Virus record (IMG/VR): IMGVR_UViG_3300047471_000189
Span: 14,230 to 78,229 of that record
From: a virus
DNA length: 64,000 nt
Reading direction: 5' to 3' (one strand)
Shown here: positions 11,302 to 49,927 of the stretch, one piece after another
How positions within the stretch are numbered: the stretch's first letter is position 1
How the letters are laid out: every line of letters starts with the position of its first letter
Program-made: the position numbers and the translations under genes
Notes under the pieces: generated by a model
Told to the model about the DNA's origin: nothing
Database searches by the model: none
What the model saw: the letters and a program-made list of their open reading frames with translations, nothing else

Positions 11302-14300
11302 TTACAGCCTCTCCCGTTTGGTGATCGAACCAGTTCTGTCCGTCATCAGATCCAACCCTGTGTCCGGTCTGGGGGTGGGTTGCCGTGTAGAGGTAGGCAA
11401 CCTCCTTCTGGAGAGGAGACTGTGCGGTCGGAGGAGGAGTATAGGACGACTGCGGTTGAGGAGCGGCCTGCTGTTGTTGCTGCGGGATCATTCTCATGAA
11501 CCGGTTGAACGTCGGGTCCTTCGCCCGCTCGGCTGGGGTCATCTCCTTCTTCACCTTGTTCAGGTAACGCTTCTGGACCTGTAGGGTCAAGGTAGCGAGG
11601 GCTGCCTTCTCCTGCGGGTTCAGAACGTCGTACAGCTTCAAGTACTCAGCCGCCGGTAACCGGGCCGCTCTGGTGTAGAGAGAAGCCATGTCCGGGGGAA
11701 TGCCTTGGGTCTTCTTGAAGTTGTTCTGGATCTGCTTCAGTTCCGATTCCTTCAACTGGTCCGTCTGGTAGGTAAGCTTGACCAAGTCGGGCCACGTGAT
11801 TTGTCCGGAACGTAGCTGGTCCTCTAGCTGCATCACTCTGCGGTGGCGAGCCATCTGGGTTGAATCGACGGGACCATCCTCGTTGTGGTTGGAGGCAAGT
11901 TCTGCCGCCAGCTTCTGAGCCGGGGTGTTATAGACCTGTGCCGTGCCTCCGGAGGCTTTCCATGCTTGGCCGAGGTTTCCGATTTCAGGACCGGTGCCAG
12001 TTACCGCTTGTCCGATACTCTGGGCAGCGATAGGAGCCATGTTCCTGAAGATGTCGACCCACATGTCTTCCGGCGCGAGCTTGCGGCCAAACTGGTCGCG
12101 CTGGGTAAGGAGTTCCTGACCCATACGGACAGTTGGGGACAACCGGCCCTTGATGAAGCCAACAGGATCGTCTGCGGCGTGGAGCAAGTCGGTTGGGAGG
12201 GTACGGATTCCGAAGATGGTTTCCTTGCCTTCCTTGTTCTTTACGGCCAGTCCGAACGGAGCTTCGTAGTGAGCGTTGCCTGTGGTAAGCAGGTTCAACA
12301 CACGGGCAATTCCCCAGAGTCCGAGAGCCATCTTGGCAACCTGAGCCCTGCCTAGTCCCCCTTCATCACGGTTGAACAACCGGACTCCGGAACGCATTTC
12401 TGATTCGAGCCAGTCAGGAGCGAGCAGCATCAAGCGGCCCCAGTCCTGTGTGGTCGCGCTGCGGCCCATAGCCTTCCAGTTGATTCCACCGAAGCTGTCG
12501 TTGGCGTGAGTTGCCGCCATCTTGGCTACCTTGTCTGTGGACCACTCTGGGTGCAGGCGCTGGTATTCGTCGAACATGTGCTCGGCTGCCGTAGCCTTGA
12601 TCGCCGGGATGTAGCGACGGAACAGCAGGTCTTGGAACCAGTCCATTGAGCCAGCCAATACCTTACCAACTCCGGGGATCATACGCAGGGCACCGCCTCC
12701 GGCAGATACGCCTTCGGAGTGTTCCTGCATGGCCCGGTAGTCAGTTCCGACGGTCAATCCCTGCTCGGCCATCTTGTACATCTTGGTGGGCGAGTTCGGG
12801 TCCATCGGGTCGATCTTCGCTCCGTGGATCAAATCAGGTGCGTGCAGCGTGAACGGGTTGACCCCGGTCATAACTCCGCGCAGAGCAATCTGCACCATGT
12901 GGAACGGAGACAACGAAAGCAACGTGTGCTTCAGTTTGGTTCCCGCTCCGAGCAATGCTTTGCCAACAGGGTTCTGGCCAATGGTCGACGGGTTCAGTCC
13001 GAGGCGATTCTTCAGGTACTCCGCGAATTCCGGGTGAACCTTGATGTCCGACCGGACGAGCACGCCGTTTCCGGCAGAGTCGTTGGTGACGAAGTTCCAC
13101 CCCTTCATCGCCCCGTTGTCGAGACTGATGTAGTCCTGCGGGTCCCAAGCATATTTCTTGGGTTGCGCGTCGTTGAACTCCTTCAATCCAGAGAAGTCGT
13201 TGTTGTTGAGCATCGACTTCAGATACATGAGATCAGTCCTGAGTTTGTTGTTACCGACCTGATCGTACTGAGCTTCCTTAGACTCCGCCCTGTCTTCGAG
13301 GCGTGCGATAGCGGCCCGAATGTTACCCGGGTGAACGTAGGGAGTAATATCCTTTAGAGTCCCGTCCGCTATGAACCGGTCGAAGTCTCCGTTCTTCTTG
13401 AGTCCCCTTACCATGTCGTCGGACAAGTTGATCTTCCGGACGCGGTTCGGGTCGATGAACGTTTTCGGGTCTTCCCCGTTCTGTCCAGTTACAACGCGAC
13501 CTGTTCCGGATAGAACGACTGCCGGGCGACCGTCTGATGCACGGGTTCCTGCGTCACGCAGCTTGTCAATCAACTGCCGATTAGCGGCAGCCTTGATAAG
13601 CTGGGCCCGGCCCTGTGCCGTGGTCTGGACCGGGTCAAGGAATAACTCTTTTGGAGACTTGAGCAGAGCGGTAACCGTAGAATCGTACACGCGCTGCCGG
13701 GCCATGTTCACGTCGGTCGCGAACTTACCCTGCTTGGAATCGGACAGAATAAGTTTACCTTTCGGGTTCTCGTCCTTGTAGACGCGGGTCATGTAGTCTT
13801 CGATGTGGTTATGGAGCAGGTCGTTCGCTGAACCGAGTTGCCAGTTCTTGTCCTGCTCGTCCCTCAAGTATTTGGCTGTCTGGAGCACTCGGTCGGGAGA
13901 CGTACCGCTGGCCACGCGCTCGTACGCACGGATCACGCGGTCCTTATATTCCTTGGGCATGTTCTTGAACTTGTTGTCCCGGATCATGTCATCGATATTC
14001 GACGGTAGTCCATTATCTGGACCACCACGGGCGAACAACGGCTGCCCCTGCTTGAGTACGGACTCACGCATGGAATCGGTGATTGGGAAGTAGGGAACGG
14101 ATTTTGACTCCGGGACGGCCATGTTCATTTTGCCGCCAAGTTTTTCGGCCAGTGCTAGACTACCGTTACGCCGCATTGCGTCTTCGAAGGAGTACCCGGA
14201 CAGCTTCATATCATTGGCTATTGCCTGTGCCTGATGAGGCAGGGAGACAGGCCCACCTTCTTTAAGCCACTTATTCCCCATTTTAATTAGTTCGAGAGAA

Positions 14301-17300
14301 TCATATGACGGACCTTCGTACGTCCATTCGGAACGACCAATAGAAGGAGGAAGGTCGATCTTCGTCTCCCCAACCTTAGCTCCAAACTGTTTTCCAAGTT
14401 TGTTGGCTAGGTCTGGGACGATTTTGTCGTAGAAGCCACGCATACCTTCGCCGCCGACTTTGAGGTCAACACCTGAAAGCTCGTGACTGGCTAAGTGTCT
14501 AAGTTCTACAAACCACCTATTTTCCTTACCACCAACTTCGGAAACCATTATGCTTTCGCGGGGGTTTCCTTCGTTGAGTCTTCGGTCTGGGTGTAGAATA
14601 ACTTCGACTGGCTTCCCGTCAGGGTTTCCGCTAGGGGGAACCATCGCCCGATCCCCGTCCTTCATAGTATCTGTATCGACACGGGGGGTCCGGAGAAGCT
14701 TGTTTGCTGCCTCTTTGCCAATATAGTCAGGAAGTTTTTCAGGAGACGAGTTTTCTGTAAGGATTTGATTTCCGGAGTGATCGAAGGCCCGGAGTGTTCC
14801 GTCTACCGGAGCATACGTAACCCGGCTAATCTGCTTCGACAAATCATACCGAGTGGCTTGGTCTTCTCCCGGTGTCCACAAAACTCCGTCATACCCGTGT
14901 TCCGCAGCGTACCGGACCATCCTCTTCATTAAGAGTTCTGGCCATGTTTTCTTGAAGGGGGCGTCAGGGACCCCGCCATTCTTTTTCTTATTGAGGCTCT
15001 CAAGTTCTCTATCGAGAGTCTCCATTCTAGAAGTTGCTTCGTTAAAAGCAGTACTGTCTTGCTCTTGGCGGTGATACGCTCTTTCCTCTGCCGCTACGTT
15101 TCTTTCTCTAGCTACCTGATAGCGTCGTTGTTCTTCCTCGGGGGTGAGTTCAGATTTGTACCCCTGTGTCCGTCCCTTCTGGTGCCAGTCGCTCTGCAAC
15201 TCTTCGAGGTGCAACAGTTTTTCACCGTTGGGGCCGGTGCGGTCGTTGAAGCGGACGTGTCCTACTACGTTGGGTTCGTCCCAGTGAGAACTGCGGAAGT
15301 TTCCGTGTTCTTCGGTAGAGGAATTAGCGGTGTAGTCGTACTGCACTTGACCGTCTTCGTCCAAGTGAGAGCTAACATACCGATGCGCTTCCACCTCTGT
15401 TGGGAACGTAGCTAGAATTTTGTTCGGATTTGCTGGGTTATAAACGTGGAATCCGGACACTGTCTTCTGGGGCAGCGTCAACAGCATCTCTCGGTAGTTC
15501 TCACCACCGGGAAGGGTGTAGGTGCCGAATTTAGGAGCGTCGTGGGGTTGATCTCGGTGGTCCATCAAGCGGTGGAGGGCCGCTCGTTCCAACTCTCCGA
15601 TGCGGGTAACCTCTTCGTAGTCCGCTTTGGCTCCGGAAGCTTCTGCCTTTTTCATAGCTTCCGAGCGTTCATCTCCGAGGCGGAAGTAGTCGTTTCTTAG
15701 AGCTTCTTCTCTTCCTGCATCCGCGCCCTTCGTAACTTCCTGCACCTGTAGGTTATTAGCTGCCAAGTACTGCCGGACTTCGTCCGGGCGCACCGGTTCC
15801 TTCCCCTTCGAGCGGAGGAATTCGTCGAGACCGGTGTACTTCATTTCGTCCGGTTTTACGCCGTTGTTCTCCAGCATTTTCTGGACGGTGTCGGCGGGCA
15901 TCGGTCCCTGCATCCGGGAGCCGATAATCTGGTTGGATTTCAGGTACCACTGCGGAGCGGGGTTGTCCCGGGCGTACAACGGTATGTACTTGGCACCGAT
16001 TCCGGTACCGCCGCCGATATGCTGATCCATGTATGCCGGGTTGAAGTCTGTTGCCGCTCCAAAATCAAACGCGCTTTGCGGCCCGGACTTCGCTTCTAGG
16101 TGCCGCTGGATTGCCGAGTTGGCGCGGGCGGCTTCGAGTCGACCAGCCGCGTTAAGAAGTCGGTCAGAAACTCCCGAAGTTTCTCCTTGGGCAGGGCGTT
16201 CGGGGACATAGGACTTGAGTTTTTCGTCGAAGGCATTTAGGTCTCCTCCTAATTTGGTTATGAGACCCCGAATTTGGGGGTCATGTTGTAACAGGTCAGC
16301 GAAGTCCGCCGAATGCGCGGCCACGAGTTCTGGGGTCAGAAGACCCTGCTTCACGATCTGCTGTGGAGGTATCCAGCGGTCGTTACCCCATCCGGACAGT
16401 TCGGCGAGGCTCTTGATGAAGCTCCACGCTGCGGCCTGAGCCTGACGCGGGGCTATCCCGTGCGCCTCTGCGGCTTCCCGGACCTTGGCGGACATCGAGT
16501 CGTAGACTGCGGGTTTGTTGATGCGGCCCGGGTCCTGACCGGCGAGCACAGCCATCCACGTGTCGTTAGTTACGCGGTTGACATCCTCTCCGAGATTCTT
16601 GGTAAACGCCGAGACCTTGGGTCCCGATAGTGGTTCTCCTTGCAGAGCACGAATAGCGTTACCCAAACGCGATTGTAAGTCTACGCCCCGGCGCATCATC
16701 TGGTAGAGCTTGGCCGATTTGTTTGGTTTCCCGTCTTTCCAGACAACATCGGTTGGGCGACCAGCCTTGTCCCACTTCGCCCATTGTTCAATGGCCATAA
16801 CAAGGTTTGTCTTGACCGGCTGAACTGGGCTGAGAGCAGCGACGAAATTCAGGAACTTGTCTTTGTCCGCTGGGTGAAGGCGGTCGAATCCCGAATCAAG
16901 GAGGGCGTCGAACGCACGCGACGAACGCTCATACCACATCTGCCCGGCCCGGCCAGCCCTAACGGCGTCGGACCATTCTTCTGCGTCAGGCAGTGAGTTG
17001 AATGCGGCGACTAGTGAGTTCTTCTTTTCGTCGGTGTTGTGTTTTGCTTGTTCCTCGTCGGTGAGGTATTTCTTGATGGAGTTCCAATCACGAGAGTAGA
17101 GACCCGAGAAGTTCTGGCGGAAGTAGTTCACACTGCCGTACGCCGGGGCAGCGTGTTGTCCGCGTCCTTCGTCCCAGTCCCTCAGCTTCCGGAGAATGGT
17201 ATCCTTGTCTCCCGCCGAGGCGCTGAAGCCTTTTTCTCCTTTGGGGTGGATGAATTCGATTTGATAATGCTTGGCCTCTGGGGAAGAAGCAATGGACTGA

Positions 17301-20300
17301 TAAACACGGTCCACTGTGTCCGGGTCGTTCTTCTGAAACTCTACGTTCAATCCGCCGCGCATCGTACGCAGGCGTACTCCACCAGCCTTAAAGAGGGCAG
17401 TGTATGCGTCATCATATCCTTTTGGTACGATCCCGGCTTCATCCATCAGGTCTTCGTGCCAGTCCCCGACAAATGTTTTGTTCTTTCCTGTTACAATAGC
17501 CGCGCTACCGGGCTCTCCCATTCCCGCACGGAGTTTGAGACCGCCAAGCTTTTTGAATTCTTCCTTCTCCTTGGCGGTGAAGTCGCGAGCAGCCAACCCG
17601 AGGGCCGGAACTTGTCCAGATAATGGACTGGTTCCCTCCCGCATCTGTTGCTCGACCGGTGTGTCTTTGAACGTGGCTATTTCTCCGCCCGGGTGGTAGT
17701 ACCCGTCGTAGCCTGCGTCCTTCATCATCCGTTCGTAGATTGTGCCGATTGCCCCTCTCTGGCCTTGAATGCCACGAGCCGCCGCTTCTTGATACGCGGC
17801 AGACATCAGCTTGTCCGGGTCGTCCACCCACGGGTACAGGTTCTCGTTGTTAAAACGAGCTTTGTACTGGTAGGGTTGGCGTTCGTAGAACGGCTCGCCG
17901 TGCGACCCCTCGACACGCCAGTAAGACTTCTTGACGTAGTCCTTGGGGAAGTTGGCTGCCCGTTCCCGTTCCGCGCCCTTCTGCGGGCCCGTGAATTGCT
18001 TCTCGGGTGAGACTGTATCTAGACCTTCTGCTCTAGTGCCGTGAACGGCGTCGACGAAGGGTTCCCTTGGCTCGCGTGTGAGTTTCGATAGCCCCACGTA
18101 ATCGGGCCTTGATTCGAAAGCTTTACGAACTGGACCCCACGTGGGATGCTTTGATTCAAGCTCGGCGAGTCTGGTATCGAGGACCCGCTGGGCGGCGTCC
18201 CGGCTTTCGTAGTCGCCGTGTTGGAATGCTCTGCCATTTGTTTCTCCTATGTTTCCTGCGTCGAGGCGTGAAGCTACTTCCGCGACCTGTGGGCGGTACC
18301 TGTCTCCCGGGCTAACTATGTGGACAAGGTGTCCTCCCGGGATTGGCTCGATGGTGTCGCCGGGGATTCCGTGGGCTTCGAGTACGGCACCAATCTGACT
18401 GGCGTCCGCCGTAGAGAGAGGAACCCGGAACTGGAACAACTTGTCCGAGCCAGCGCCCGGCACGAATCCGGCACCCATGTTCTGGTAACCAGCTTTGGTG
18501 ATGAAGGCGTTGTGGTATTCAACTGCATCGGGGTCTGTACCCGGAGCGAACCTCTGTAGGGTAGAGTTTTCTGCTCCACCTTCCCAGTGGCCAATGGCCG
18601 GACGCACGACTGCCTTGACCCCGGGGAGGGCCTCGGCAAAGTCTTTCGATAATGTTTCAGCGAGTTTCTGCGGGCGGGAATTGAGACGGAACTCTGCGTC
18701 CTGTACATTTGGTAGGTTATGTACGTTCGGGGAGACGAACCCGATGGGGCTCTGAACCTCGTCTTCGTGGAGTTCCCGGGCTGTTAGGCCGGGTTTTGCT
18801 GGGACTTCTGGTTCTGCTTCACCCACTCCAGCAGGGCGGCGTCCCCCTTCTTGAACGCCTGCCACGCTCCGGTCAACTGGTCCTTGCTTGGTAGCGCGAG
18901 TTGCGGCTTCTGTTTGGGCATGTATATCCTCCACGTGTTGACGTGCTATTTCGTTGATTTTGTCGAGGTTGGCAAAAGCGTCTTTGCCGTGCTTTGCTTC
19001 TACCTCTTTGAAGTATTCTTTGATAAACTTGAATTGCTCTTCCGGGGAGATGATTCCCTCGGCCCGGCCAGCCAAGAACTGGGCGGCGGTTTCGACGACA
19101 CGAACAACTGGGCTGGGATCGTACCCAACGTCACTCTGACGCTTTGCCCATTCTGCCGGTATGAGGCCATGAAGCCGGTCCCACTGGGAGCCCGGGGCCA
19201 CGGTAACACTGCCGTCGGGATGTGTGGTGGCTCCGTCGAGATGGTTGACGATGTCCCCGTCCTTGGACAACTCGCGCTGCCAAGTGTGGTGGAGTTCCTC
19301 GGAGACGATGGGGATCGCTTGATCTTTGAGCAACGTTGGGTGGGCGGCGGTGGTGAGCAGCCCTTGCTTGGACAGCGTCGTGGCGGACTGGAACAACTCC
19401 TGAATTTCTTTGTTCTGGCTGACTCCGGCGTTCTCCAGACTGCGGCCCAGAGTCCCGATTTCATCCGGGGCAAAGCTGACGCCCTTGATCGGGTTACCCG
19501 GTTCGGTGGCATGGTTAAACTGCGCCCACGCGCTGGGGGTAAGCCAGACAACGGGGCGACCGTCGGCTCCAATACGAACCTGACCGGCATCGTTCGAGTG
19601 TGCTACTTCTGTCCCGGCCCTCGGCGGCATGTCCGCTGGGGCAATCGGGGTTCCAGTGGGCGGCTGTCCATTATTCGGATCGATTTCATCTGCCCGGCCA
19701 TCTGCCCGTCTTAGAGCAGAAGCGATGGCTGCGGCCTTCTCGGCGTCCGATCCTGTCTCGGCGTGTGCGAAAGTCTCCGCAAGTTCATCATTCTTAAGTG
19801 CTTTAACTTCTGTGGAGTCTCCCAAAACTGCACGCGGTTCTTCGTGCCCGAGCAACTGCCGGGCATGTTGGTCGATCTCTATTGCGTGCTGTTCGGCGAC
19901 GGCGTGCTGGGCTTCCCGCTCTTTGTTCGTGCGGTCGACGGCCAGCCACTCGTCATTCGGGCGGAATGCCCCTTCCTGAATCAGCGGCTTGAATAACTCA
20001 CCGGCTGAGTGGAGGGCGTGGGTAGCCCCGAGAACTCCCAATCCGTATCCGGCGACCATCTCGGTGCCGTACTCCATAGCCTTGTCATAGTCCCCGGACT
20101 TGAGGGCGTCGAGGAACTGGGGGGACATCTGGGCCCCCATCTCAAGCTGTTGGTAAGTAAACCCAGCATTCAGAAGGTAGTTGGCCGTCTTAGCCGCTCT
20201 TGCCGTTGCGGCTATCGGCATAGTGGGAACAGCCTTCCGTATAAGCTGGAAGGACCCACGTTCCATCAGGTTCCCACCAATCAGATCGTGCTCGGTGAGA

Positions 20301-21154
20301 CCGTTCTTGTAAAGGATGTCCTGCCCACGCTTCCACAGCGCAGGGTCGACCCCGGCTTCGCGCACGGCGTCTTCGACCGGCTTGAACGCTTCCCGGGCTT
20401 TCGCGATAGTTGCGGAGGTTTTAGCCAGAGCTTCCCGCTGTATATCCGAAAGCCCCGCCTTCTCCAGAACACTCTGGACGGCTGGCTCCCCAAACATAGT
20501 ATCGGGAACGAGGTTGGAGGTGATCTCCTTAGCCCGCCGTAGAAGGTCCAGATCATGCCCTCCTGCCTCTAGCGCGGCGTTGACGGCAGGTTCTATTGCC
20601 TTCTGGTCCTTGAACGCTTGTATGGCCGCTTCTGAGGCTTTAACGATCTGTGGGATTTCGGTGTCAGTAAACAAACGGGTACCAGTTTCGGTAACCGCTT
20701 CTTTGAGAGCCGTGGCCCCAGCGCTTTCGATAGCTCCGCCGGTACCGAACGTGGCAGCGGTAAGAGCGACAGACAACGGGGAGGTTAATCCGGAGGCAAT
20801 CTTCTCGACACCCCGTTCAAACCCACCGGCACCTTCGCGGTACTCAGGCATTCCGAACAAGCTTTCGGTAACCGGGGTATTCGCCCAGTCCCACGCACGC
20901 TTGTACCACGGCTGGGATTCGTCTTGATATAGGTGAGACGCTGGTCCCTCCGGAGCAGAAGGTTGTCCATTATTCGGACCGGAAAGACCGGCATCGAATA
21001 GGTTTCCAGTAGCTGCTGGGGAAACGGGAGCAGACGGAGAAACCCCTCCGCCCCCGGTTAACCCTTGGTCAAACAGGTTTCCGGAAGCGATAGGGGTTGT
21101 CTTTGTGACAGGAGAAGACTCCAGTCCTTGGTCAAACAGATTGGTATTGGCCAT
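11294..21154 (-). CDS. Giant (3286 aa) polyvalent virion/ejection protein
   Basis: Position after internal virion genes; zincin-like SEELHH, ART-like HGT..GYDG..E, glycosylase-like ALSP..TNDTW..QAAAW and EELQSDW modules. Confidence 0.75.
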   Translation of the reverse strand: MANTNLFDQGLESSPVTKTTPIASGNLFDQGLTGGGGVSPSAPVSPAATGNLFDAGLSGPNNGQPSAPEGPASHLYQDESQPWYKRAWDWANTPVTESLFGMPEYREGAGGFERGVEKIASGLTSPLSVALTAATFGTGGAIESAGATALKEAVTETGTRLFTDTEIPQIVKASEAAIQAFKDQKAIEPAVNAALEAGGHDLDLLRRAKEITSNLVPDTMFGEPAVQSVLEKAGLSDIQREALAKTSATIAKAREAFKPVEDAVREAGVDPALWKRGQDILYKNGLTEHDLIGGNLMERGSFQLIRKAVPTMPIAATARAAKTANYLLNAGFTYQQLEMGAQMSPQFLDALKSGDYDKAMEYGTEMVAGYGLGVLGATHALHSAGELFKPLIQEGAFRPNDEWLAVDRTNKEREAQHAVAEQHAIEIDQHARQLLGHEEPRAVLGDSTEVKALKNDELAETFAHAETGSDAEKAAAIASALRRADGRADEIDPNNGQPPTGTPIAPADMPPRAGTEVAHSNDAGQVRIGADGRPVVWLTPSAWAQFNHATEPGNPIKGVSFAPDEIGTLGRSLENAGVSQNKEIQELFQSATTLSKQGLLTTAAHPTLLKDQAIPIVSEELHHTWQRELSKDGDIVNHLDGATTHPDGSVTVAPGSQWDRLHGLIPAEWAKRQSDVGYDPSPVVRVVETAAQFLAGRAEGIISPEEQFKFIKEYFKEVEAKHGKDAFANLDKINEIARQHVEDIHAQTEAATRATKQGPVDRSVAGVQEGGRRPAGVGEAEPEVPAKPGLTARELHEDEVQSPIGFVSPNVHNLPNVQDAEFRLNSRPQKLAETLSKDFAEALPGVKAVVRPAIGHWEGGAENSTLQRFAPGTDPDAVEYHNAFITKAGYQNMGAGFVPGAGSDKLFQFRVPLSTADASQIGAVLEAHGIPGDTIEPIPGGHLVHIVSPGDRYRPQVAEVASRLDAGNIGETNGRAFQHGDYESRDAAQRVLDTRLAELESKHPTWGPVRKAFESRPDYVGLSKLTREPREPFVDAVHGTRAEGLDTVSPEKQFTGPQKGAERERAANFPKDYVKKSYWRVEGSHGEPFYERQPYQYKARFNNENLYPWVDDPDKLMSAAYQEAAARGIQGQRGAIGTIYERMMKDAGYDGYYHPGGEIATFKDTPVEQQMREGTSPLSGQVPALGLAARDFTAKEKEEFKKLGGLKLRAGMGEPGSAAIVTGKNKTFVGDWHEDLMDEAGIVPKGYDDAYTALFKAGGVRLRTMRGGLNVEFQKNDPDTVDRVYQSIASSPEAKHYQIEFIHPKGEKGFSASAGDKDTILRKLRDWDEGRGQHAAPAYGSVNYFRQNFSGLYSRDWNSIKKYLTDEEQAKHNTDEKKNSLVAAFNSLPDAEEWSDAVRAGRAGQMWYERSSRAFDALLDSGFDRLHPADKDKFLNFVAALSPVQPVKTNLVMAIEQWAKWDKAGRPTDVVWKDGKPNKSAKLYQMMRRGVDLQSRLGNAIRALQGEPLSGPKVSAFTKNLGEDVNRVTNDTWMAVLAGQDPGRINKPAVYDSMSAKVREAAEAHGIAPRQAQAAAWSFIKSLAELSGWGNDRWIPPQQIVKQGLLTPELVAAHSADFADLLQHDPQIRGLITKLGGDLNAFDEKLKSYVPERPAQGETSGVSDRLLNAAGRLEAARANSAIQRHLEAKSGPQSAFDFGAATDFNPAYMDQHIGGGTGIGAKYIPLYARDNPAPQWYLKSNQIIGSRMQGPMPADTVQKMLENNGVKPDEMKYTGLDEFLRSKGKEPVRPDEVRQYLAANNLQVQEVTKGADAGREEALRNDYFRLGDERSEAMKKAEASGAKADYEEVTRIGELERAALHRLMDHRDQPHDAPKFGTYTLPGGENYREMLLTLPQKTVSGFHVYNPANPNKILATFPTEVEAHRYVSSHLDEDGQVQYDYTANSSTEEHGNFRSSHWDEPNVVGHVRFNDRTGPNGEKLLHLEELQSDWHQKGRTQGYKSELTPEEEQRRYQVARERNVAAEERAYHRQEQDSTAFNEATSRMETLDRELESLNKKKNGGVPDAPFKKTWPELLMKRMVRYAAEHGYDGVLWTPGEDQATRYDLSKQISRVTYAPVDGTLRAFDHSGNQILTENSSPEKLPDYIGKEAANKLLRTPRVDTDTMKDGDRAMVPPSGNPDGKPVEVILHPDRRLNEGNPRESIMVSEVGGKENRWFVELRHLASHELSGVDLKVGGEGMRGFYDKIVPDLANKLGKQFGAKVGETKIDLPPSIGRSEWTYEGPSYDSLELIKMGNKWLKEGGPVSLPHQAQAIANDMKLSGYSFEDAMRRNGSLALAEKLGGKMNMAVPESKSVPYFPITDSMRESVLKQGQPLFARGGPDNGLPSNIDDMIRDNKFKNMPKEYKDRVIRAYERVASGTSPDRVLQTAKYLRDEQDKNWQLGSANDLLHNHIEDYMTRVYKDENPKGKLILSDSKQGKFATDVNMARQRVYDSTVTALLKSPKELFLDPVQTTAQGRAQLIKAAANRQLIDKLRDAGTRASDGRPAVVLSGTGRVVTGQNGEDPKTFIDPNRVRKINLSDDMVRGLKKNGDFDRFIADGTLKDITPYVHPGNIRAAIARLEDRAESKEAQYDQVGNNKLRTDLMYLKSMLNNNDFSGLKEFNDAQPKKYAWDPQDYISLDNGAMKGWNFVTNDSAGNGVLVRSDIKVHPEFAEYLKNRLGLNPSTIGQNPVGKALLGAGTKLKHTLLSLSPFHMVQIALRGVMTGVNPFTLHAPDLIHGAKIDPMDPNSPTKMYKMAEQGLTVGTDYRAMQEHSEGVSAGGGALRMIPGVGKVLAGSMDWFQDLLFRRYIPAIKATAAEHMFDEYQRLHPEWSTDKVAKMAATHANDSFGGINWKAMGRSATTQDWGRLMLLAPDWLESEMRSGVRLFNRDEGGLGRAQVAKMALGLWGIARVLNLLTTGNAHYEAPFGLAVKNKEGKETIFGIRTLPTDLLHAADDPVGFIKGRLSPTVRMGQELLTQRDQFGRKLAPEDMWVDIFRNMAPIAAQSIGQAVTGTGPEIGNLGQAWKASGGTAQVYNTPAQKLAAELASNHNEDGPVDSTQMARHRRVMQLEDQLRSGQITWPDLVKLTYQTDQLKESELKQIQNNFKKTQGIPPDMASLYTRAARLPAAEYLKLYDVLNPQEKAALATLTLQVQKRYLNKVKKEMTPAERAKDPTFNRFMRMIPQQQQQAAPQPQSSYTPPPTAQSPLQKEVAYLYTATHPQTGHRVGSDDGQNWFDHQTGEAVNG
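14008..14022. repeat. Dispersed 15-bp motif copy
   Basis: GTCCATTATCTGGAC, intragenic (GPDNG). Confidence 0.85.
17614..17628. repeat. Dispersed 15-bp motif copy
   Basis: GTCCAGATAATGGAC, intragenic (SPLSG). Confidence 0.85.
19666..19680. repeat. Dispersed 15-bp motif copy (1 mismatch)
   Basis: GTCCATTATTCGGAT, intragenic (DPNNG). Confidence 0.8.
20965..20979. repeat. Dispersed 15-bp motif copy
   Basis: GTCCATTATTCGGAC, intragenic (GPNNG). Confidence 0.85.
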
Positions 21155-45338: not shown

Positions 45339-45971
45339 TTACGAGATTGTGCTGGACCGGCTTCCGGTTTCCTTCACCGGCTTAAACACGGGACAGGCGC
45401 AGAGCTTGCCGCGCTCTACGTGGGCCGCTGCGACCCCTCCCGGGTGAACTAATACTCCGTGGTGGTCGCCCATTGTGATCGACCCGAGTTCATGGACAAT
45501 ACTGCTGTGTCCAACGAGTAGGGGAGGGATTCCGCAGTCCATAAATATGTGGAGAGCTTCTTGGAAGCAGGGAGCTATCCGGCTTTTGAAATCGTTCAGG
45601 GATTCGCCGCCGGGGATCACAGAGTCCGGGTTGTCCAGATAAACTTGCAGCCGGGCTTCAGATTCCTTGTTTCTCGGAGTGCCGGAGAATGAGCCAACGT
45701 TGAGGGCCCGGAGTTGTTCAGAAGAGTGGACAGGGAGTCCTTTAGCTGCGGCTATGATCTCGGCTGTTTTAGTCGCTCGTTGTTTGTCGGAGCATAGGAT
45801 GCAGGAGATATCGATGTCGGAGAACAGGTCCGCGAGCTTGTGCGCCTGCTTCAGGCCGGTTGCATCGAGAGGGGGATTGGCGTTCCCTCGAAACATTCCA
45901 GAAGCGTTGAGGACCGTCTGTCCGTGCCGAACGACATAGAAGGCGGTTTGCTTATTCTGCTGGAGAGGCAT
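45339..45971 (-). CDS. Histidine phosphatase (phosphoglycerate mutase superfamily)
   Basis: VRHGQT..N, SD..RA..TA, PGGES, VGH. Confidence 0.9.
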   Translation of the reverse strand: MPLQQNKQTAFYVVRHGQTVLNASGMFRGNANPPLDATGLKQAHKLADLFSDIDISCILCSDKQRATKTAEIIAAAKGLPVHSSEQLRALNVGSFSGTPRNKESEARLQVYLDNPDSVIPGGESLNDFKSRIAPCFQEALHIFMDCGIPPLLVGHSSIVHELGSITMGDHHGVLVHPGGVAAAHVERGKLCACPVFKPVKETGSRSSTIS

Positions 45972-46374
45972 CAACGGGTTCCTTTGGCTTGCGCGTTCTC
46001 TGGGGCTGGGGCGGTACGGGATCGGCGGGGGCGGGCGGAACATCAGGCTCCGTTTCGGGTACATGGCCGTCAGAAAACATCGTAGCGGTGGTTACGCTCG
46101 CGACCAGAGGACCCGAGTTCTTCGCAGGGGCTTCCTCGGGGGCCGGGTACTCAAACTGGAGGCCGTCAAGTTCTACGTCTAACTCAGCTTTGAGGTCGGC
46201 CAACTCTGGATGGTTAGCCAGAGAGGATTTGCGGACAACCAAGACCTCCACAGCTTGCCGACGGTAGTCGCGCTCGGCGCAATCGTTTCGGGCTATGTCT
46301 CGCAGGACGTAATCAGGAAGGAGTTTCAGGTGAGCGTGGTAGTCAAAGAATGGGTCTTTAAGGCGGTCGGTCAT
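45952..46374 (-). CDS. Hypothetical protein
   Basis: GAGG RBS; Pro-rich tail. Confidence 0.6.
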   Translation of the reverse strand: MTDRLKDPFFDYHAHLKLLPDYVLRDIARNDCAERDYRRQAVEVLVVRKSSLANHPELADLKAELDVELDGLQFEYPAPEEAPAKNSGPLVASVTTATMFSDGHVPETEPDVPPAPADPVPPQPQRTRKPKEPVDASPAE

Positions 46375-46385
46375 GAAACCTCGTG

Positions 46386-46400
46386 GTCCATTATTCGGAC
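46386..46400. repeat. Dispersed 15-bp motif copy
   Basis: GTCCATTATTCGGAC just before RBS. Confidence 0.85.
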
Positions 46401-46579
46401 GGGGTTAAGTCAAATTCTCGGCAGTCGGATAAGAGATGGGGACATTCAATGCGACACCGGGGAGTAGAAGAATGAGCCACCCATTCCGGGTCTCGAAAAC
46501 TCATCAAGACCGTTTCGTGGTTCAGGTACGCTGGCTCTACCTGACAATCGAAATAATGTCCTCTTTTATATGACATCAT
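46391..46579 (-). CDS. Small hypothetical protein
   Basis: 62-aa ORF filling the gap; weak RBS. Confidence 0.3.
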   Translation of the reverse strand: MMSYKRGHYFDCQVEPAYLNHETVLMSFRDPEWVAHSSTPRCRIECPHLLSDCREFDLTPSE

Positions 46580-46592
46580 AGATTTGAAAAGT

Positions 46593-46775
46593 GCAGGTCG
46601 TAAGTTGTAACAGGTTAAGAGCGAGCTTGCCCGGCGGTAGGACCAGATTGACTACTTTTGCGGTGAGATCGTCACTGCTTTCGCCGAATCTGTTCTTTCC
46701 ACCAGCCCGAACCACGTTCCCGACAACTCGGGGCTAACGAGAAGCCGGTTCAGTTCTGCGTAACAAACGACCTGC
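46593..46775. ncRNA. Candidate ~183-nt multibranch structured RNA
   Basis: Terminal 9-bp inverted repeat GCAGGTCGT/ACGACCTGC enclosing CCGGC/GCCGG, CAGATT/AATCTG and CCCGA/TCGGG helices; no ORF in track. Confidence 0.5.
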
Positions 46776-46803
46776 GGGGTATGTCCTTATCGGACAAACG
46801 GCT

Positions 46804-46944
46804 GGGGACGACCTTGGTGATCGTCCCTGTATCTCCTTCCGCGCTTGGCGGATGAGAGGGAGGCCGGGACCAAAGATGAAAGGAGGGAACATTCCTTGGT
46901 CCCGGAAACGGGCCTGAAAGTATGTATAAGGAGGCGACCCGTTT
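46804..46944 (-). ncRNA. Candidate multi-hairpin sRNA with anti-SD (CCUCCUU) loops
   Basis: Consecutive stems including the perfect CCGGGACCAA/TTGGTCCCGG and AAACGGG/CCCGTTT, each enclosing AAGGAGG (+) = CCUCCUU (-). Confidence 0.45.
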
Positions 46945-46946
46945 AA

Positions 46947-47162
46947 CTAGCGAACTCTTGTAATCTCGTGCTTGCCTTGGATGTTCTTGAAGAAGAAGTT
47001 TCCGTGGCTGTCGGCCTGCTGGTATGCCTGAGCTTTCTCAGGTGGAACGTCGTGGACAGCAAATGTCCCGTTGTTGAGGTCCAGAGTCAGGCGCTGCGCC
47101 TGTGGATCGTACCGGGCCCCTTGTACATGCGAACTGGGCTTCAGCTTGAGCGGTTGATCCAC
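46947..47162 (-). CDS. KTSC-domain protein
   Basis: SSHV....YD.....L.....NG......VP.......ADSHG.FF..NI pattern. Confidence 0.85.
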   Translation of the reverse strand: MDQPLKLKPSSHVQGARYDPQAQRLTLDLNNGTFAVHDVPPEKAQAYQQADSHGNFFFKNIQGKHEITRVR

Positions 47163-47314
47163 TACTTGACCCTCTTGAGCTTGGGGTTCTTAGCCTTTGC
47201 CGCCGGGCTTGCTTTCCGGGTCGCAGACGCTAAAATGGCTCCAGCCGATTTCTTGCTGTAGCCTTCTCCTTGAATCTTGTTTTGAACTGCTTTGAAGCCG
47301 GGGTGTTTTGCCAT
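47162..47314 (-). CDS. Small basic protein (50 aa)
   Basis: AAGGAG RBS; MAKHPGFKAVQ...AGAILASATRKASPAAKAKNPKLKRVK. Confidence 0.7.
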   Translation of the reverse strand: MAKHPGFKAVQNKIQGEGYSKKSAGAILASATRKASPAAKAKNPKLKRVK

Positions 47315-47334
47315 GTAGCTCCTTATGAAATTCC

Positions 47335-47434
47335 CAGAGAGAACAGACGCTAACGGAGACGCCCTTTCGGGCATTCTTAGCTCCCGGGTTAGGGGAGTTT
47401 TAGGCAAGAAGTAACCGTCAACTACACTACTCTG
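47335..47434 (-). ncRNA. Y-like RNA copy 3 (two-hairpin insert)
   Basis: CAGAG/CTCTG closing stem; UAGUGUAG, GGUUACUUC and CGUCUGUUC shared with the YrlA-type copy; GCCC-GAAA-GGGC hairpin. Confidence 0.75.
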
Positions 47435-47442
47435 AGTAAAAC

Positions 47443-47579
47443 TACTGGAAGGAACAGACGAACTCGGAGATTTTAGCGTTTTACCTTTAAACTACCGGCC
47501 CCCGAAGGGACCGACCGGGACTCGAACCCAGAACTCTTTCATTAGCATTGAAGTAACCGAACTCTACACCATTCCAGTA
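47443..47579 (-). ncRNA. yrlA: YrlA-type Y RNA with circularly permuted tRNA-like domain
   Basis: 8-bp closing stem; T arm CUGGG-UUCGAGU-CCCGG, acceptor stem capped by cUUCGg, then UA-GUUU-AAAGGUA-AAAC D arm; immediately downstream of the Ro60 gene. Confidence 0.88.
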
Positions 47580-47585
47580 AAAGAT

Positions 47586-47603
47586 GTGGGGGCGAACCCC
47601 CAC
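47586..47603 (-). terminator. GC hairpin between the Ro60 stop and the Y RNA (terminator or processing signal)
   Basis: GTGGGG-GTTCGC-CCCCAC followed by ATCTTTT on the minus strand. Confidence 0.5.
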
Positions 47604-47605
47604 GG

Positions 47606-48931
47606 TTAGGATTGTCTTTCAAGTTCCTGAATGTAGTCTACGACAGCTTCGGACCATCCATCAATCCGGACCCAGTCTCTTCCGCCGATTCCGTTCTGGT
47701 AAGAAGCAACGTTCAGCATGTATCCCTTGGTCCCGACTAGCGGGTTTCCGATGTTGGTTGCGGATTGCTCGTCGGTTAAGACGATAACCCGGTCGTAGCC
47801 CTTCGAAGCAGCCAGCATAACCGCCGCCTGTGTGTCAGTTCCGTGTCCGAACAACCCGCTGCCGATTGCGTCGTTTAACGCGAACCCGCGACGGGGAGGA
47901 ACGAACCCGGCAGTCGATCCGAAGGCTATGATCTGGCAGTCGTCGCAGACTTCACGAAGCAACATGGCCAGAGCAGCCGCCGCGTCCCGACGGGAGATTT
48001 CCGACTTTCCGGATACAGTCGACGACATAGAACCAGAGGTATCTACGCAGAGGACCGTCTTTCCAGACAACTTAGGTGCGTCGGCCAAGCACTTGAACAT
48101 AGCCGCTTCCAACTGCGGTTCGAGCGACGGAGCGTACTTTGCAGCCGAGATGAACCGGAAAGGAAGGACACGTTCGACCTTCATCTTCGCCAGACCCTCG
48201 CGGATCAGGCTATCCGATACTCCGGACCCCTGCATGTTACGCAGGTTGCGAAGCAAAGCCATTGCCCCGAGCTTGTTCTCGGACAGCAGGCGCTCAAATG
48301 TTCCCTTCTTGTCAGAGCCAGCGCTCAAGGAAACTTCCCATGTGTCCGGGGTTTCCAGAGTCTGGTCGACGATCTTCTTGAACAGCACAGTCTCGTCGTT
48401 GGACGAAGGCTTTGCGTGTGTCAAGAACAGAACGTCCCGCAGCTTGATGGCCGCGTCTGACTTCTGCCACTTGGCGAATGAGTACTCGTTGAACTTGTTG
48501 AAGGCCGCAGCCAGACCCTTCTTGACCTGAGCCGAGAGGGGCTGCTTGCCATCCTTCCAGTAAATCGCGAGAAATTCCGCGATCTCGTCCGGACGCTGGA
48601 TGACACGGGTGAGGGTTTCCCCTACCAGCTTGCGGGCTTCCTTGTTCGGGTGCCGGGCAAGTTCCCGTACCAAGAACAGCGGGATGTGCCGCAGCTTCAT
48701 CTTTTCGCGGGCTTCGACAGCGATCTGAGACACTTCAAACGGATCGGCTTCGAGCAACGCTTCGCGGACGTACTGGGCGTGAGAAACTCCGTCCACGTAG
48801 AAGCTGTCTTCCCACAACAGCGAGGCCATCACCAACCGGCGAAGCTTCTGGCTCTTGTTCAGACGGGCAGCCTGTGCTCCCTCGTGGGTGCGCTCCAGTA
48901 CCGCCGATGCTGCATTCGTGTTCGTTCTCAT
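47606..48931 (-). CDS. rsr: Ro60/TROVE-domain RNA-binding protein with C-terminal vWA domain
   Basis: LWEDSFY, LRHIP, QRPDE, FNEYSFAKW, LRDVLFLTHAKP, TWEV.LS, ALLRNLRN, LPFRF; vWA MIDAS VDTSGSM and LTDEQ. Confidence 0.93.
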   Translation of the reverse strand: MRTNTNAASAVLERTHEGAQAARLNKSQKLRRLVMASLLWEDSFYVDGVSHAQYVREALLEADPFEVSQIAVEAREKMKLRHIPLFLVRELARHPNKEARKLVGETLTRVIQRPDEIAEFLAIYWKDGKQPLSAQVKKGLAAAFNKFNEYSFAKWQKSDAAIKLRDVLFLTHAKPSSNDETVLFKKIVDQTLETPDTWEVSLSAGSDKKGTFERLLSENKLGAMALLRNLRNMQGSGVSDSLIREGLAKMKVERVLPFRFISAAKYAPSLEPQLEAAMFKCLADAPKLSGKTVLCVDTSGSMSSTVSGKSEISRRDAAAALAMLLREVCDDCQIIAFGSTAGFVPPRRGFALNDAIGSGLFGHGTDTQAAVMLAASKGYDRVIVLTDEQSATNIGNPLVGTKGYMLNVASYQNGIGGRDWVRIDGWSEAVVDYIQELERQS

Positions 48932-48961
48932 GACTTCCTCCAGCCGAAGCTCGGATGATTA

Positions 48962-49029
48962 AGACCGGGAATAAGCGGAAAGGGTAGTTTTTCATGCAAG
49001 AGAAGTAACCCTAGCCTTCACCACGGTCT
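48962..49029 (-). ncRNA. Minimal Y-like RNA (68 nt) in the rsr 5' leader
   Basis: AGACCG/CGGTCT closing stem; UGGUGAAG, GGUUACUUC and CGCUUAUUC core motifs without a tRNA-like domain. Confidence 0.7.
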
Positions 49030-49044
49030 GACTTGACTAAAAAC

Positions 49045-49053
49045 ATTGTACCA
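49045..49053 (-). promoter_or_regulatory. Extended -10 promoter for the Y RNA/rsr unit
   Basis: TGGTACAAT (TGn-TAcAAT) ~15 nt upstream of the Y-like stem. Confidence 0.55.
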
Positions 49054-49091
49054 CAACGAAACTCGATTGTATACCCTAATCTAAAAATAAT

Positions 49092-49328
49092 TTATATCGA
49101 CCGTTCTTCTTTGTCCCAAGTCTGCGGCATGTGGGTAGATACTTCGGCCCGGAGTATCGGAAGCTTTTTCTCATCTCTTGCGACTTGAAATGCCTTAGTG
49201 AAAAGTTCCGTGTCAGACTTACTATCCACTTCTTCTTGGCTGACTAACCCTAACCCGAGGGCGATCCTCAGTTGCAAGTAATGCGGCAAGTTCATGAAAT
49301 CGTAGGCCAAACGCCTCTCTTCCGTCAT
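49092..49328 (-). CDS. Hypothetical protein
   Basis: ATGA-coupled to the HNH gene. Confidence 0.55.
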   Translation of the reverse strand: MTEERRLAYDFMNLPHYLQLRIALGLGLVSQEEVDSKSDTELFTKAFQVARDEKKLPILRAEVSTHMPQTWDKEERSI

Positions 49329-49927
49329 GCTGCTACCAACTCTTTCTCAATTTGAGAAACTTGGTCCATCCAGTCGGCTATACGGCGGTGTTCTTCCGAG
49401 GTTCCGTTGTTCTTGATTCTGTTCGCACGATAAGATATGACGGCTATATTGCCGGGGACGTACCCAAGTTCGGGATTGACGCGATCAAGGCTTGGACAAG
49501 CGTCTCTGTTGTCGTCTGCGGAACCGCGAACCAATTTGATTCCGAGTATGGGACAGAATTCGGGAATTACGATATCGGTGTCGGCGATTGTGATTGGTAA
49601 CCCAAACTTCTTTGCCCTTTTACGGGCTTCATAAAGCAGGGCCTTTTCTGGTTTCTCGTTGGCATACCGGCGGTTGTACTCCAGAAAGTAGTCTCTGTTT
49701 TCCGCTTTGTAGACTTTATTTCTCTCCGATATTTTCTCGGCATTATTCCGGTTGTACGCCTTACGGGTTGCTTTTACCCGGTCCTCATTACCGGATGTCC
49801 ACTCTTTCGTATAAGCTCTGTGGCATTCTTTGCAGTAACTTCCACGACCATCTGGGGATTTAGAACACTTGGTCATTTCATCGAGAGGTTTTGCCTGCTC
49901 ACATTTCGTACAAATTTTAGTTTCCAT
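49325..49927 (-). CDS. Free-standing HNH-type (homing) endonuclease
   Basis: CTKC...YCKEC zinc finger; CPILG, SLDRV...GYVPGNI.VIS.RAN. Confidence 0.8.
   Translation of the reverse strand: METKICTKCEQAKPLDEMTKCSKSPDGRGSYCKECHRAYTKEWTSGNEDRVKATRKAYNRNNAEKISERNKVYKAENRDYFLEYNRRYANEKPEKALLYEARKRAKKFGLPITIADTDIVIPEFCPILGIKLVRGSADDNRDACPSLDRVNPELGYVPGNIAVISYRANRIKNNGTSEEHRRIADWMDQVSQIEKELVAA

What the first reader, a model, noticed from the sequence alone, without database searches (positions are those of the whole stretch)
47335..49053. Phage Ro60 gene flanked by three Y-like RNAs sharing one core with interchangeable inserts
Seen (minus strand): three elements at 48962-49029, 47443-47579 and 47335-47434. 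Each has a closing stem, U[GA]GUG[UA]AG, a helix with compensatory changes (AGGG/CCCU, UUCGG/CCGAG, GACGG/CCGUU), an invariant GGUUACUUC, and a 3' CG(UCUG/CUUA)UUC. The inserts differ: none, a permuted tRNA domain, or two hairpins. Known: bacterial Ro60 (Rsr) genes sit next to Y RNAs, and some phages carry Ro60 with YrlA. Inference: a modular family of Ro60-loaded RNAs, with a constant Ro-binding end and variable effector domains, possibly tethering different partners. No rtcB/rtcA is visible in the window.
Basis: partly seen in the sequence, partly recalled or inferred. Interest (0 to 1): 0.85.

Follow-up and report, generated by a model that had tools for sequence, protein, structure and literature searches.

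The report
Phage Ro60 gene with three Y RNAs
An uncultured soil phage encodes a ring-shaped Ro60-type RNA-binding protein flanked by three small RNA genes that share one conserved docking "handle" but carry different heads (one a tRNA look-alike); it is a well-supported but expected new example of the Ro60/Y-RNA system already known in bacteria and phages.

Summary
On the minus strand, three elements (48961-49030, 47444-47578, 47333-47436) flank a 441-aa TROVE+vWA gene (47606-48931). Its predicted fold best matches phiRo60 of Thermus phage phiLo (TM 0.78), then bacterial Rsr and animal Ro60.

A covariance model trained mostly on homologous loci, and not on elements B or C, hits exactly these three places in the 78-kb virus record (E 8e-20, 5e-16, 2.5e-10).

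The same handle sits next to homologous TROVE genes in about 170 phage and bacterial loci. It usually comes in arrays of 2-6, and up to 8 in CcrColossus. Every hit lies on the gene's strand, in the same three size classes.

The handle is: closing stem, bulged U, 2 bp, asymmetric loop YGWA / GyuUGUU, an 8-bp helix, then UUACUUC. Covariation is strong: 93% of cells paired versus 60% shuffled. Four helix pairs that were not in the model also covary.

Element B is a YrlA-type tRNA mimic. A is a short hairpin type. C carries an extended hairpin plus a GNRA hairpin.

Binding, expression and function remain inferred. Constant Ro-binding stem plus variable head is the textbook Y RNA model, so this is a new member of a known kind. 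This scan has already reported the same architecture on other DNA (e.g. e1-6019867, e1-6050735).

The parts
49045..49073 (-). Sigma-70-like promoter (TATACA-17-TACAAT with an upstream TG), ending about 15 nt before element A
   Evidence: It is the only promoter-like site in 46800-49400. This is a consensus match only; no transcript data exist.
48961..49030 (-). Y-like RNA A, short class (about 68 nt): handle plus a small U-rich hairpin. It resembles YrlB and lies in the leader of the TROVE gene.
   Evidence: R2 70 bits, E 8e-20. MFE z -2.3. Orthologous short elements in L009-L011 have compensatory stem changes.
48937..48951 (-). Small AGC-UUCG-GCU hairpin (48951-48942) abutting the GGAGG ribosome-binding site (48941-48937), ahead of the ATG at 48931
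   Evidence: Read directly from the sequence. Function not tested.
47606..48931 (-). 441-aa Ro60-type protein: TROVE/HEAT ring plus a C-terminal vWA domain with the MIDAS motif DxSxS (D297, S299, S301)
   Evidence: Pfam TROVE 9e-12 and vWA_Ro60 1.4e-7. PDB 9KOP/9L5Y phiRo60 E 1.5e-23 over residues 14-438. AF2 model pLDDT 79; Foldseek 9KOP TM 0.78, Rsr 2NVO 0.70, Xenopus Ro 1YVP 0.62. PHROG 850 RNA-binding protein 4e-50. Invariant residues listed.
47586..47603 (-). GC-rich hairpin 3 nt after the stop codon, followed by AUCUUUUACU. Terminator-like, or a 3'-end protecting or processing hairpin, between the gene and element B.
   Evidence: 7 pairs, 6 G-C. Function inferred.
47444..47578 (-). Y-like RNA B, long class (about 137 nt; closing stem reaches 47442-47580). 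YrlA-type: handle + V hairpin + T arm + UUCG-capped acceptor-like hairpin + D arm.
   Evidence: R2 58 bits, E 5e-16, and B was not in the training set. Rfam YrlA 27.7 bits covering the T arm, acceptor-like hairpin and D arm only. Compensatory changes in the T arm, acceptor-like hairpin and D stem among four orthologues.
47333..47436 (-). Y-like RNA C, medium class (about 104 nt): handle + extended V arm (UUCUU/AAGAA plus CUCCC/GGGAG) + GNRA-capped hairpin (GCCC-GAAA-GGGC)
   Evidence: R2 40 bits, E 2.5e-10, and C was not in the training set. MFE z -2.6. Both insert hairpins keep pairing through double changes in L009-L011. The same module type recurs in other loci.

Best explanation
The locus is a phage Ro60/Y-RNA ribonucleoprotein cassette: one ring-shaped TROVE+vWA protein and three paralogous Y RNAs.

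All three RNAs share a protein-docking handle. It consists of a closing stem of 6-9 bp, an invariant bulged U, two base pairs, an asymmetric internal loop (5' YGWA / 3' GyuUGUU), an 8-bp helix, and then UUACUUC. The apical modules differ:
- A: a small hairpin.
- B: a circularly permuted tRNA mimic (YrlA type).
- C: an extended hairpin plus a GNRA hairpin.

Inferred mechanism. The unit is probably transcribed from the promoter upstream of A, as one precursor with the gene, and the RNAs are cut out. The handle docks on the basic outer surface of the ring. In the phmmer alignment, phiRo60 RNA-contact residues K141, K142, R169 and R178 correspond to K137, K138, R165 and K174 here. The different heads would then couple or sequester different host RNA-metabolism factors during infection. 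Candidates are PNPase, as in the Rsr/Y RNA/PNPase and phiRo60/Yrl/PNPase complexes, and tRNA-recognising enzymes for the tRNA-like head.

Shown here: the anatomy, conservation, covariation, strand-locked gene linkage and the protein fold. Inferred: transcription and processing, binding, and the host partners.
For: Protein: (TROVE+vWA, MIDAS motif, best fold match phiRo60, then Rsr and Ro60).

RNA specificity: R2 hits only the three elements in the window and in the whole 78-kb record.

Linkage:
- 182 R1 hits (E<=0.01) in 84 IMG/VR loci around TROVE homologues, all on the gene's strand.
- 117 R2 hits in 37 loci; 36 of 37 loci carry 2-6 elements, 95 upstream and 22 downstream.
- 23 hits in cultured phages: CcrColossus 8, Kikimora 6, Xanthomonas 10KY502B 5.
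- 249 hits in 80 bacterial loci, mostly Acidobacteriota, all on the gene's strand and upstream.

Structure: 92-93% of cells paired, versus 60-64% shuffled and about 50% slid; 582-649 double-change cells versus 184-214; 0 of 500 shuffles reach this. Pairs 15-18 with 66-69 were not in the model and still show the highest mutual information.

Homology to known Y RNA features: the family 5' motif GGYGWAG includes the published GNCGAAG form (GGCGAAG in about 10% of copies). UUAC matches the published YUAY that begins the V loop (PMC4201824).

Experimental precedent in the nearest solved relative: phiRo60 binds two phage-encoded Yrl RNAs through the CGAA stem-bulge and forms complexes with host PNPase (PMC12135203).

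Expression precedent: the 40%-identical TROVE gene of crAss001 is an early gene (PMC8375218).
Against: There are no transcript data of any kind; no RNA run holds this DNA. Element B scores only 27.7 bits against Rfam YrlA, whose gathering score is 69, and nothing in the window reaches any Rfam threshold. None of the three window copies has the canonical CGAA; they have UGAA or UGUA. Three phiRo60 RNA-contact residues (R137, R163, R173) are not conserved. Two homologous loci (RsoM2USA, L005) show no element within the flanks fetched. Linkage shows partnership with the gene, not physical binding. The alignments used for pair counts were fitted to the model, apart from the four extra pairs.
Confidence: 0.85

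Rival explanations
1. The elements are mainly cis-acting. They would be operator-like mimics in the TROVE mRNA (leader element A, 3' elements B and C) through which the protein autoregulates its own translation or mRNA stability, rather than stable trans-acting RNAs.
For: A starts about 15 nt after the -10 box and ends 30 nt before the ATG, with a small hairpin abutting the RBS. In most loci the last element lies within 20-100 nt of the start codon.
Against: Arrays of up to 8 copies, 22 of 117 elements downstream of the gene, closed terminal stems, and elaborate conserved tRNA-like heads are not needed for an operator. In characterised systems the equivalent RNAs are processed and stable (PMC4201824). 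The two roles are not mutually exclusive for element A.
Confidence: 0.07
2. The handle RNAs are real ncRNAs, but their direct partner is another factor (a host protein, or RNase P or tRNA enzymes). The TROVE protein would only be co-regulated with them.
For: Nothing tested here shows physical contact. The canonical CGAA is absent from the three window copies.
Against: TROVE is the only protein conserved beside the RNAs. None of six neighbouring window proteins recurs in about 170 homologous loci. The pairing holds across unrelated phage backbones and bacterial chromosomes. phiRo60 binds its adjacent RNAs in vitro.
Confidence: 0.05
3. They are decayed or rearranged tRNA genes, or tRNA-derived repeats or mobile-element ends, with no dedicated function.
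For: B contains T- and D-arm sequences. tRNA finders and annotators call 'tRNAs' inside sister elements in other phages.
Against: ARAGORN finds no tRNA in the window. Rfam tRNA gives 19.9 bits, below its threshold of 29. A and C have no T or D arms yet keep the handle. The strong compensatory covariation and strict co-orientation with the gene indicate selection on an RNA structure.
Confidence: 0.03

Closest known systems
Bacterial Rsr (Ro60) with YrlA and YrlB/Yrn2 Y RNAs (Salmonella, M. smegmatis, D. radiodurans; Chen et al. 2014, PMC4201824; Rfam RF02553)
   Same: The RNAs are encoded within 2 kb of the TROVE gene on the same strand. There are several paralogues per locus. One carries a permuted tRNA-like module (V, T, acceptor-like, D) and others are simple hairpins. 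A 5' G-rich motif (GNCGAAN0-1G versus GGYGWAG here) and a YUAY (UUAC here) precede the V loop. The RNAs may be processed from a common precursor.
   Different: The protein is about 90-100 aa shorter and is detected against human Ro60 only at E 1.5e-3 by sequence. The handle motif is a variant (C to U, A to U), and a conserved 3' CG-yu-UGUUCC strand, which I did not find mentioned in the parts of PMC4201824 I read, is present. Rfam YrlA does not reach its threshold. There is no rtcBA neighbourhood. The RNAs are split around the gene (S - gene - L - M).
phiRo60 of Thermus phage phiLo with Yrl1 and Yrl2 (PMC12135203; PDB 9KOP, 9L5Y)
   Same: It is the closest solved relative (E 1.5e-23, TM 0.78). 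It is phage-encoded, has two adjacent Y-like RNAs with a stem-bulge-stem, and part of its basic RNA-contact surface is conserved here.
   Different: phiLo RNAs were defined by a CGAA motif and RNAfold only. No tRNA-like module was reported for them, and both lie upstream. I could not locate the phiLo record in the collections to test model R2 on it.
Caulobacter phage CcrColossus TROVE-like gp139 with YrlA-like RNA (listed among phages in Chen et al. 2014, as cited in PMC12135203)
   Same: The protein is 46% identical to the window's. R2 finds 8 handle elements in the 1.2 kb upstream of it.
   Different: It is a jumbo phage with a larger array. In the papers I could read, only YrlA-type RNAs were reported, not the whole array.
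Vertebrate Y RNAs (Y1, Y3, Y4, Y5) with Ro60
   Same: The logic is the same: paralogous RNAs share the Ro-binding lower stem and differ in the loop that binds other proteins.
   Different: No sequence similarity was tested here. The head modules are different, and they are polymerase III genes.

Membership tests
Ro60/TROVE (Rsr) protein family | TROVE HEAT-repeat ring followed by a vWA domain | tested here: met
   Pfam TROVE 9e-12, vWA_Ro60 1.4e-7. Foldseek: 9KOP TM 0.78, 2NVO 0.70, 1YVP 0.62.
Ro60/TROVE (Rsr) protein family | MIDAS motif DxSxS in the vWA domain | tested here: met
   D297, S299 and S301 are invariant in 8 homologues. The motif aligns with the phiRo60 motif.
Ro60/TROVE (Rsr) protein family | Basic RNA-binding surface that contacts the Y RNA stem | tested here: inconclusive
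   phiRo60 K141, K142, R169 and R178 align with K137, K138, R165 and K174 here. R137, R163 and R173 align with S, D and F (alignment; residue list from PMC12135203).
YrlA (Rfam RF02553) | Reaches the family's gathering score (69 bits) | tested here: not met
   27.7 bits, E 0.003, model positions 28-81 only. Sister elements elsewhere score 24-56 bits.
YrlA (Rfam RF02553) | Permuted tRNA-like domain: V, T arm, acceptor-like hairpin, D arm | tested here: met
   Element B: the T arm, capped hairpin and D arm align to the model. The arms covary among orthologues.
YrlA (Rfam RF02553) | GNCGAAN0-1G motif near the 5' end | tested here: inconclusive
   The window copies have GGUGAAG, GGUGUAG and AGUGUAG. 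The family consensus GGYGWAG includes GGCGAAG in about 10% of 117 copies.
YrlA (Rfam RF02553) | Conserved YUAY beginning the V loop | tested here: met
   UUAC is present in all three copies. In the family: U 100%, A 88%, C 100%.
Y RNA (general) | Encoded beside a Ro60 orthologue, on the same strand | tested here: met
   The elements lie 30 nt upstream and 26-270 nt downstream of the gene. All hits in about 170 loci lie on the gene's strand.
Y RNA (general) | 5' and 3' ends pair into a long stem interrupted by a conserved bulge or internal loop | tested here: met
   16 pairs, 93.4% of cells paired versus 60% shuffled, all 16 with double changes.
Y RNA (general) | Stably bound by Ro60 in vivo and dependent on it for accumulation | not testable with these tools
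   The phage is uncultured and no RNA runs exist.
tRNA | Cloverleaf with acceptor stem and anticodon arm in the standard order | tested here: not met
   ARAGORN finds 0 genes. Rfam tRNA gives 19.9 bits, below its 29-bit threshold.

The most novel reading that the evidence does not exclude
The three RNAs are not redundant. Each would be an adaptor that docks the phage Ro60 ring onto, or decoys, a different host factor. The tRNA-like head and the anticodon-loop-like 7-nt V loops would engage tRNA-directed enzymes or defence nucleases, and another head would engage PNPase. In that reading the handle-tagged arrays of 2-8 RNAs in phages, and the arrays seen here in Acidobacteriota, form a combinatorial host-RNA-metabolism takeover or anti-defence device. 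It would be an unrecognised Y RNA superfamily absent from Rfam.
Probability: 0.12. Interest if true: 0.7.

Novelty: new member of a known kind. Interest (0 to 1): 0.35.

Why it matters
The locus adds a clean, compact example (one protein, three RNAs, no other conserved neighbour) to the Ro60/Y-RNA systems of phages.

The comparative set built here also gives:
- A precise handle consensus, with a covariance model that recovers hundreds of unannotated Y-like RNAs which Rfam YrlA misses.
- Evidence that the short, medium and tRNA-like head classes recur together.
- Evidence that some annotated phage "tRNAs" lie inside Y RNA elements.

This is useful for annotation and for choosing cultured models (Xanthomonas 10KY502B-type phages, CcrColossus, crAss001) to ask what phage Ro60 particles do. 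It does not reveal a new kind of system.

Tried and rejected
- Rfam at gathering thresholds gave nothing in the window.
This was solved by rebuilding on 142 hits as R2.
- My loose regex/stem finder gave many 4-bp false positives and was dropped.
- An initial guess of a 4-bp helix, AGGC/GCUU-like, between the loop and the inner helix was not supported. Mutual information instead showed one continuous 8-bp helix.
- My reading of the small hairpin as an anticodon-arm mimic was set aside in favour of the published V-arm assignment. The decoy idea is kept only as the novel case.
- Expression: no RNA holder is listed for this DNA.
- RtcB and RNA ligase are not found in the 78-kb record, which is 71% complete.
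- The neighbouring genes (basic 50-aa protein, KTSC, His_Phos_1, GAAD, endonuclease VII-like, orf140) do not recur in any of about 170 homologous loci, so they are not part of the system.
- I could not find the phiLo phage record to test R2 on the experimentally bound Yrl RNAs.
- The supplementary tables of Chen 2014 and the 2020 Annual Review are not held.

Full report
**Setting.** The window is part of a 78,229-base IMG/VR virus record, about 71% complete. It encodes terminase, portal and major head proteins. The DNA is held by rhizosphere and soil metagenomes. No similar cultured phage exists at the nucleotide level.

**The protein.** ORF 47606-48931 (minus strand, 441 aa) matches Pfam TROVE (9e-12), vWA_Ro60 (1.4e-7) and PHROG 850 "RNA-binding protein" (4e-50).
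- Its best solved relative by sequence is phiRo60 of Thermus phage phiLo (9KOP/9L5Y, E 1.5e-23 over residues 14-438). Human Ro60 is reached only at E 1.5e-3.
- An AlphaFold model (pLDDT 79, pTM 0.72) matches 9KOP at TM 0.78, D. radiodurans Rsr at 0.70 and Xenopus/human Ro60 at 0.62-0.68.
- The MIDAS residues D297, S299 and S301 are invariant among eight homologues.
- Four of seven phiRo60 RNA-contact residues named in PMC12135203 align with K or R here (K137, K138, R165, K174). Three do not.

It is therefore a short Ro60-type ring protein.

**The three elements.**
- GGTTACTTC occurs exactly three times, only there, in the window and in the whole record.
- Each element folds with a closing stem and has an MFE z-score of -2.1 to -2.6.
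- Rfam finds nothing at gathering thresholds. In E-value mode the middle of element B matches YrlA positions 28-81, covering the T arm, capped hairpin and D arm (27.7 bits, E 0.003; the gathering score is 69).
- ARAGORN finds no tRNA.

**Comparative evidence.** Homologues of the protein (40-82% identity) were fetched with flanks from three sources:
- IMG/VR.
- Cultured phages.
- Bacterial and archaeal genomes.

Reading the intergenic DNA showed arrays of elements with the same core upstream of the gene.

Model R1, built from eight short forms, gave 182 hits at E<=0.01 in 84 loci. All were on the gene's strand.

Model R2 was rebuilt on 142 hits, of which only element A came from the window. It then found exactly three hits in the window and in the whole virus record: A (70 bits, 8e-20), B (58 bits, 5e-16) and C (40 bits, 2.5e-10). 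B and C were not in the training set.

In 37 non-redundant IMG/VR loci, 36 carry 2-6 elements, 95 upstream and 22 downstream. They fall into three size classes:
- Short (59-80 nt): 56 elements.
- Medium (83-112 nt): 20 elements.
- Long (119-150 nt, plus one 235-nt outlier): 41 elements, of which 36 contain a T-loop motif.

The window's 68, 104 and 137 nt fit these classes.

Hits in cultured phages:

| Phage | Elements found |
|---|---|
| CcrColossus | 8 |
| Brevundimonas Kikimora | 6 |
| Xanthomonas 10KY502B | 5 |
| Microcystis Mvi-JY20 | 2 |
| cr106_1 | 1-2 |
| RsoM2USA | 0 |

Eighty bacterial loci, mostly Acidobacteriota and including one complete chromosome, carry 249 elements. All lie upstream and on the gene's strand.

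**Structure of the handle.** On the model-fitted alignments, 92-93% of cells pair, against 60-64% after shuffling and 45-54% after sliding. There are 582-649 double-change cells against 184-214, and 0 of 500 shuffles reach the observed values.

A mutual-information scan found four further covarying pairs (positions 15-18 with 66-69) that were not in the model. This is independent of the fitting. The inner helix is therefore 8 bp.

The consensus is:
- closing stem;
- U (100%);
- R-G, paired with C-Y on the 3' side;
- 5' loop Y-G(100%)-W-A(90%);
- 8-bp helix;
- u-U(100%)-A-C(100%)-U-U-C(99%);
- variable head;
- A-rich linker;
- 3' strand of the helix;
- G(91%)-c-u-U-G-U(97%)-U(98%);
- C-C and the closing stem.

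In the window the 8-bp helix is 6/8 paired in A, 8/8 in B and 8/8 in C.

**Heads.**
- B shows compensatory changes in its T arm, acceptor-like hairpin and D stem among four orthologues.
- C's two insert hairpins keep pairing through double changes or whole-stem replacement. "V hairpin plus a GNRA- or UUCG-capped hairpin" recurs in the medium class elsewhere.
- A has only a small U-rich hairpin, like the YrlB/Yrn2 hairpins described in PMC4201824.

**Relation to known Y RNAs.** Chen et al. 2014 (PMC4201824) define YrlA by five features: proximity to Ro60 on the same strand, a GNCGAAN0-1G motif near the 5' end, a YUAY that begins the V loop, a V stem-loop, and T, acceptor-like and D arms.

Here GGYGWAG takes the place of GNCGAAG; about 10% of family members have GGCGAAG exactly. 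UUAC is the YUAY. The order of parts is the same.

That paper also reports at least two Y RNAs per species, one tRNA-like and one a simple hairpin, and YrlA-like RNAs in 22 phages. According to PMC12135203 these include CcrColossus, whose protein is 46% identical to the window's.

PMC12135203 further shows that phiRo60 binds two adjacent phage RNAs through the CGAA stem-bulge and forms ternary complexes with host PNPase. The crAss001 homologue (40% identical) is an early gene (PMC8375218).

**Local organisation.**
- The only promoter-like site (TATACA-17-TACAAT with TG) ends about 15 nt before A.
- A is followed by a small hairpin and the RBS.
- A GC hairpin follows the stop codon, then come B and C. 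The next gene's RBS and ATG (47314) follow C directly.

Processing from a polycistronic precursor is therefore the likely route (inference).

The closest relatives (78-82% identity) have the order gene-L-M-S. The window has S-gene-L-M. Nucleotide homology stops at the cassette borders. The cassette therefore moves between phage backbones and has been permuted here.

None of six neighbouring proteins recurs in the homologous loci. No RtcB or RNA ligase is present.

**Verdict.** Binding, expression and partner recruitment remain inferred.

Constant Ro-binding stem plus variable head is the established Y RNA model, and YrlA beside phage Ro60 is published. I therefore class this as a new member of a known kind.

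The additions that are useful for annotation are a defined handle, three recurrent head classes, arrays of up to 8, and wide presence in Acidobacteriota.

This scan has reported the same architecture before on other DNA (e1-272486, e1-5790182; e1-6019867, e1-6050735).

Noticed in passing
L092:1659-1825 (CcrColossus), L094:1800-1933 (Brevundimonas phage Kikimora), L095:1575-1709 and 1793-1926 (Xanthomonas phage 10KY502B): Annotated or ARAGORN-called 'tRNAs' (tRNA-Gln, tRNA-Ser, tRNA-Thr, tRNA-Glu) lie inside handle elements. Rfam's tRNA model gives no hit there, while R2 and YrlA do. They look like Y RNA tRNA-mimics mis-called as tRNA genes: the handle 5' strand is read as the acceptor and D arm, and the V hairpin as the anticodon arm.
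   Followed up: partly
L101-L180 (e.g. L147 = CP085323.1, Acidobacteriaceae bacterium ZG23-2 chromosome): The same short TROVE subfamily is common in Acidobacteriota (Terriglobia) genomes, each copy preceded by several handle RNAs (249 hits in 80 loci, all upstream on the gene's strand). This fits an acidobacterial host for this soil phage, and a cellular origin or reservoir for the cassette.
   Followed up: partly
window 47328-49030 versus L009:1495-3178, L010, L011: The cassette order is permuted: S-gene-L-M in the window against gene-L-M-S in the 78-82% identical relatives. There is no nucleotide homology outside the cassette. An endonuclease VII/HNH-like gene (49325-49927) sits just upstream in the window.
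   Followed up: partly
window 46380-46946 (minus strand): About 560 nt without a convincing ORF lie between the KTSC-domain gene (46947-47162) and the next gene. There is no Rfam or R2 hit and no homology in the relatives fetched. It might hold further ncRNAs.
   Followed up: no
window 46947-47314 and 45339-46064: Downstream neighbours are a very basic 50-aa protein, a KTSC-domain protein (a domain also found at the C-terminus of some lysyl-tRNA synthetases) and a His_Phos_1 phosphatase. Upstream is a GAAD-domain protein (49092-49328). None of them recurs beside TROVE elsewhere.
   Followed up: yes
L093 (Ralstonia phage RsoM2USA) and L005: These are TROVE homologues (50% and 46% identity) without any detectable handle RNA within the 2-2.5 kb flanks. 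RsoM2USA has a genuine tRNA upstream instead.
   Followed up: no
window 11294-21154 (minus strand): A giant 3286-aa ORF with an endolysin-like segment, next to further ORFs of 1190-1650 aa. These are probably virion or cargo proteins of this uncultured phage.
   Followed up: no
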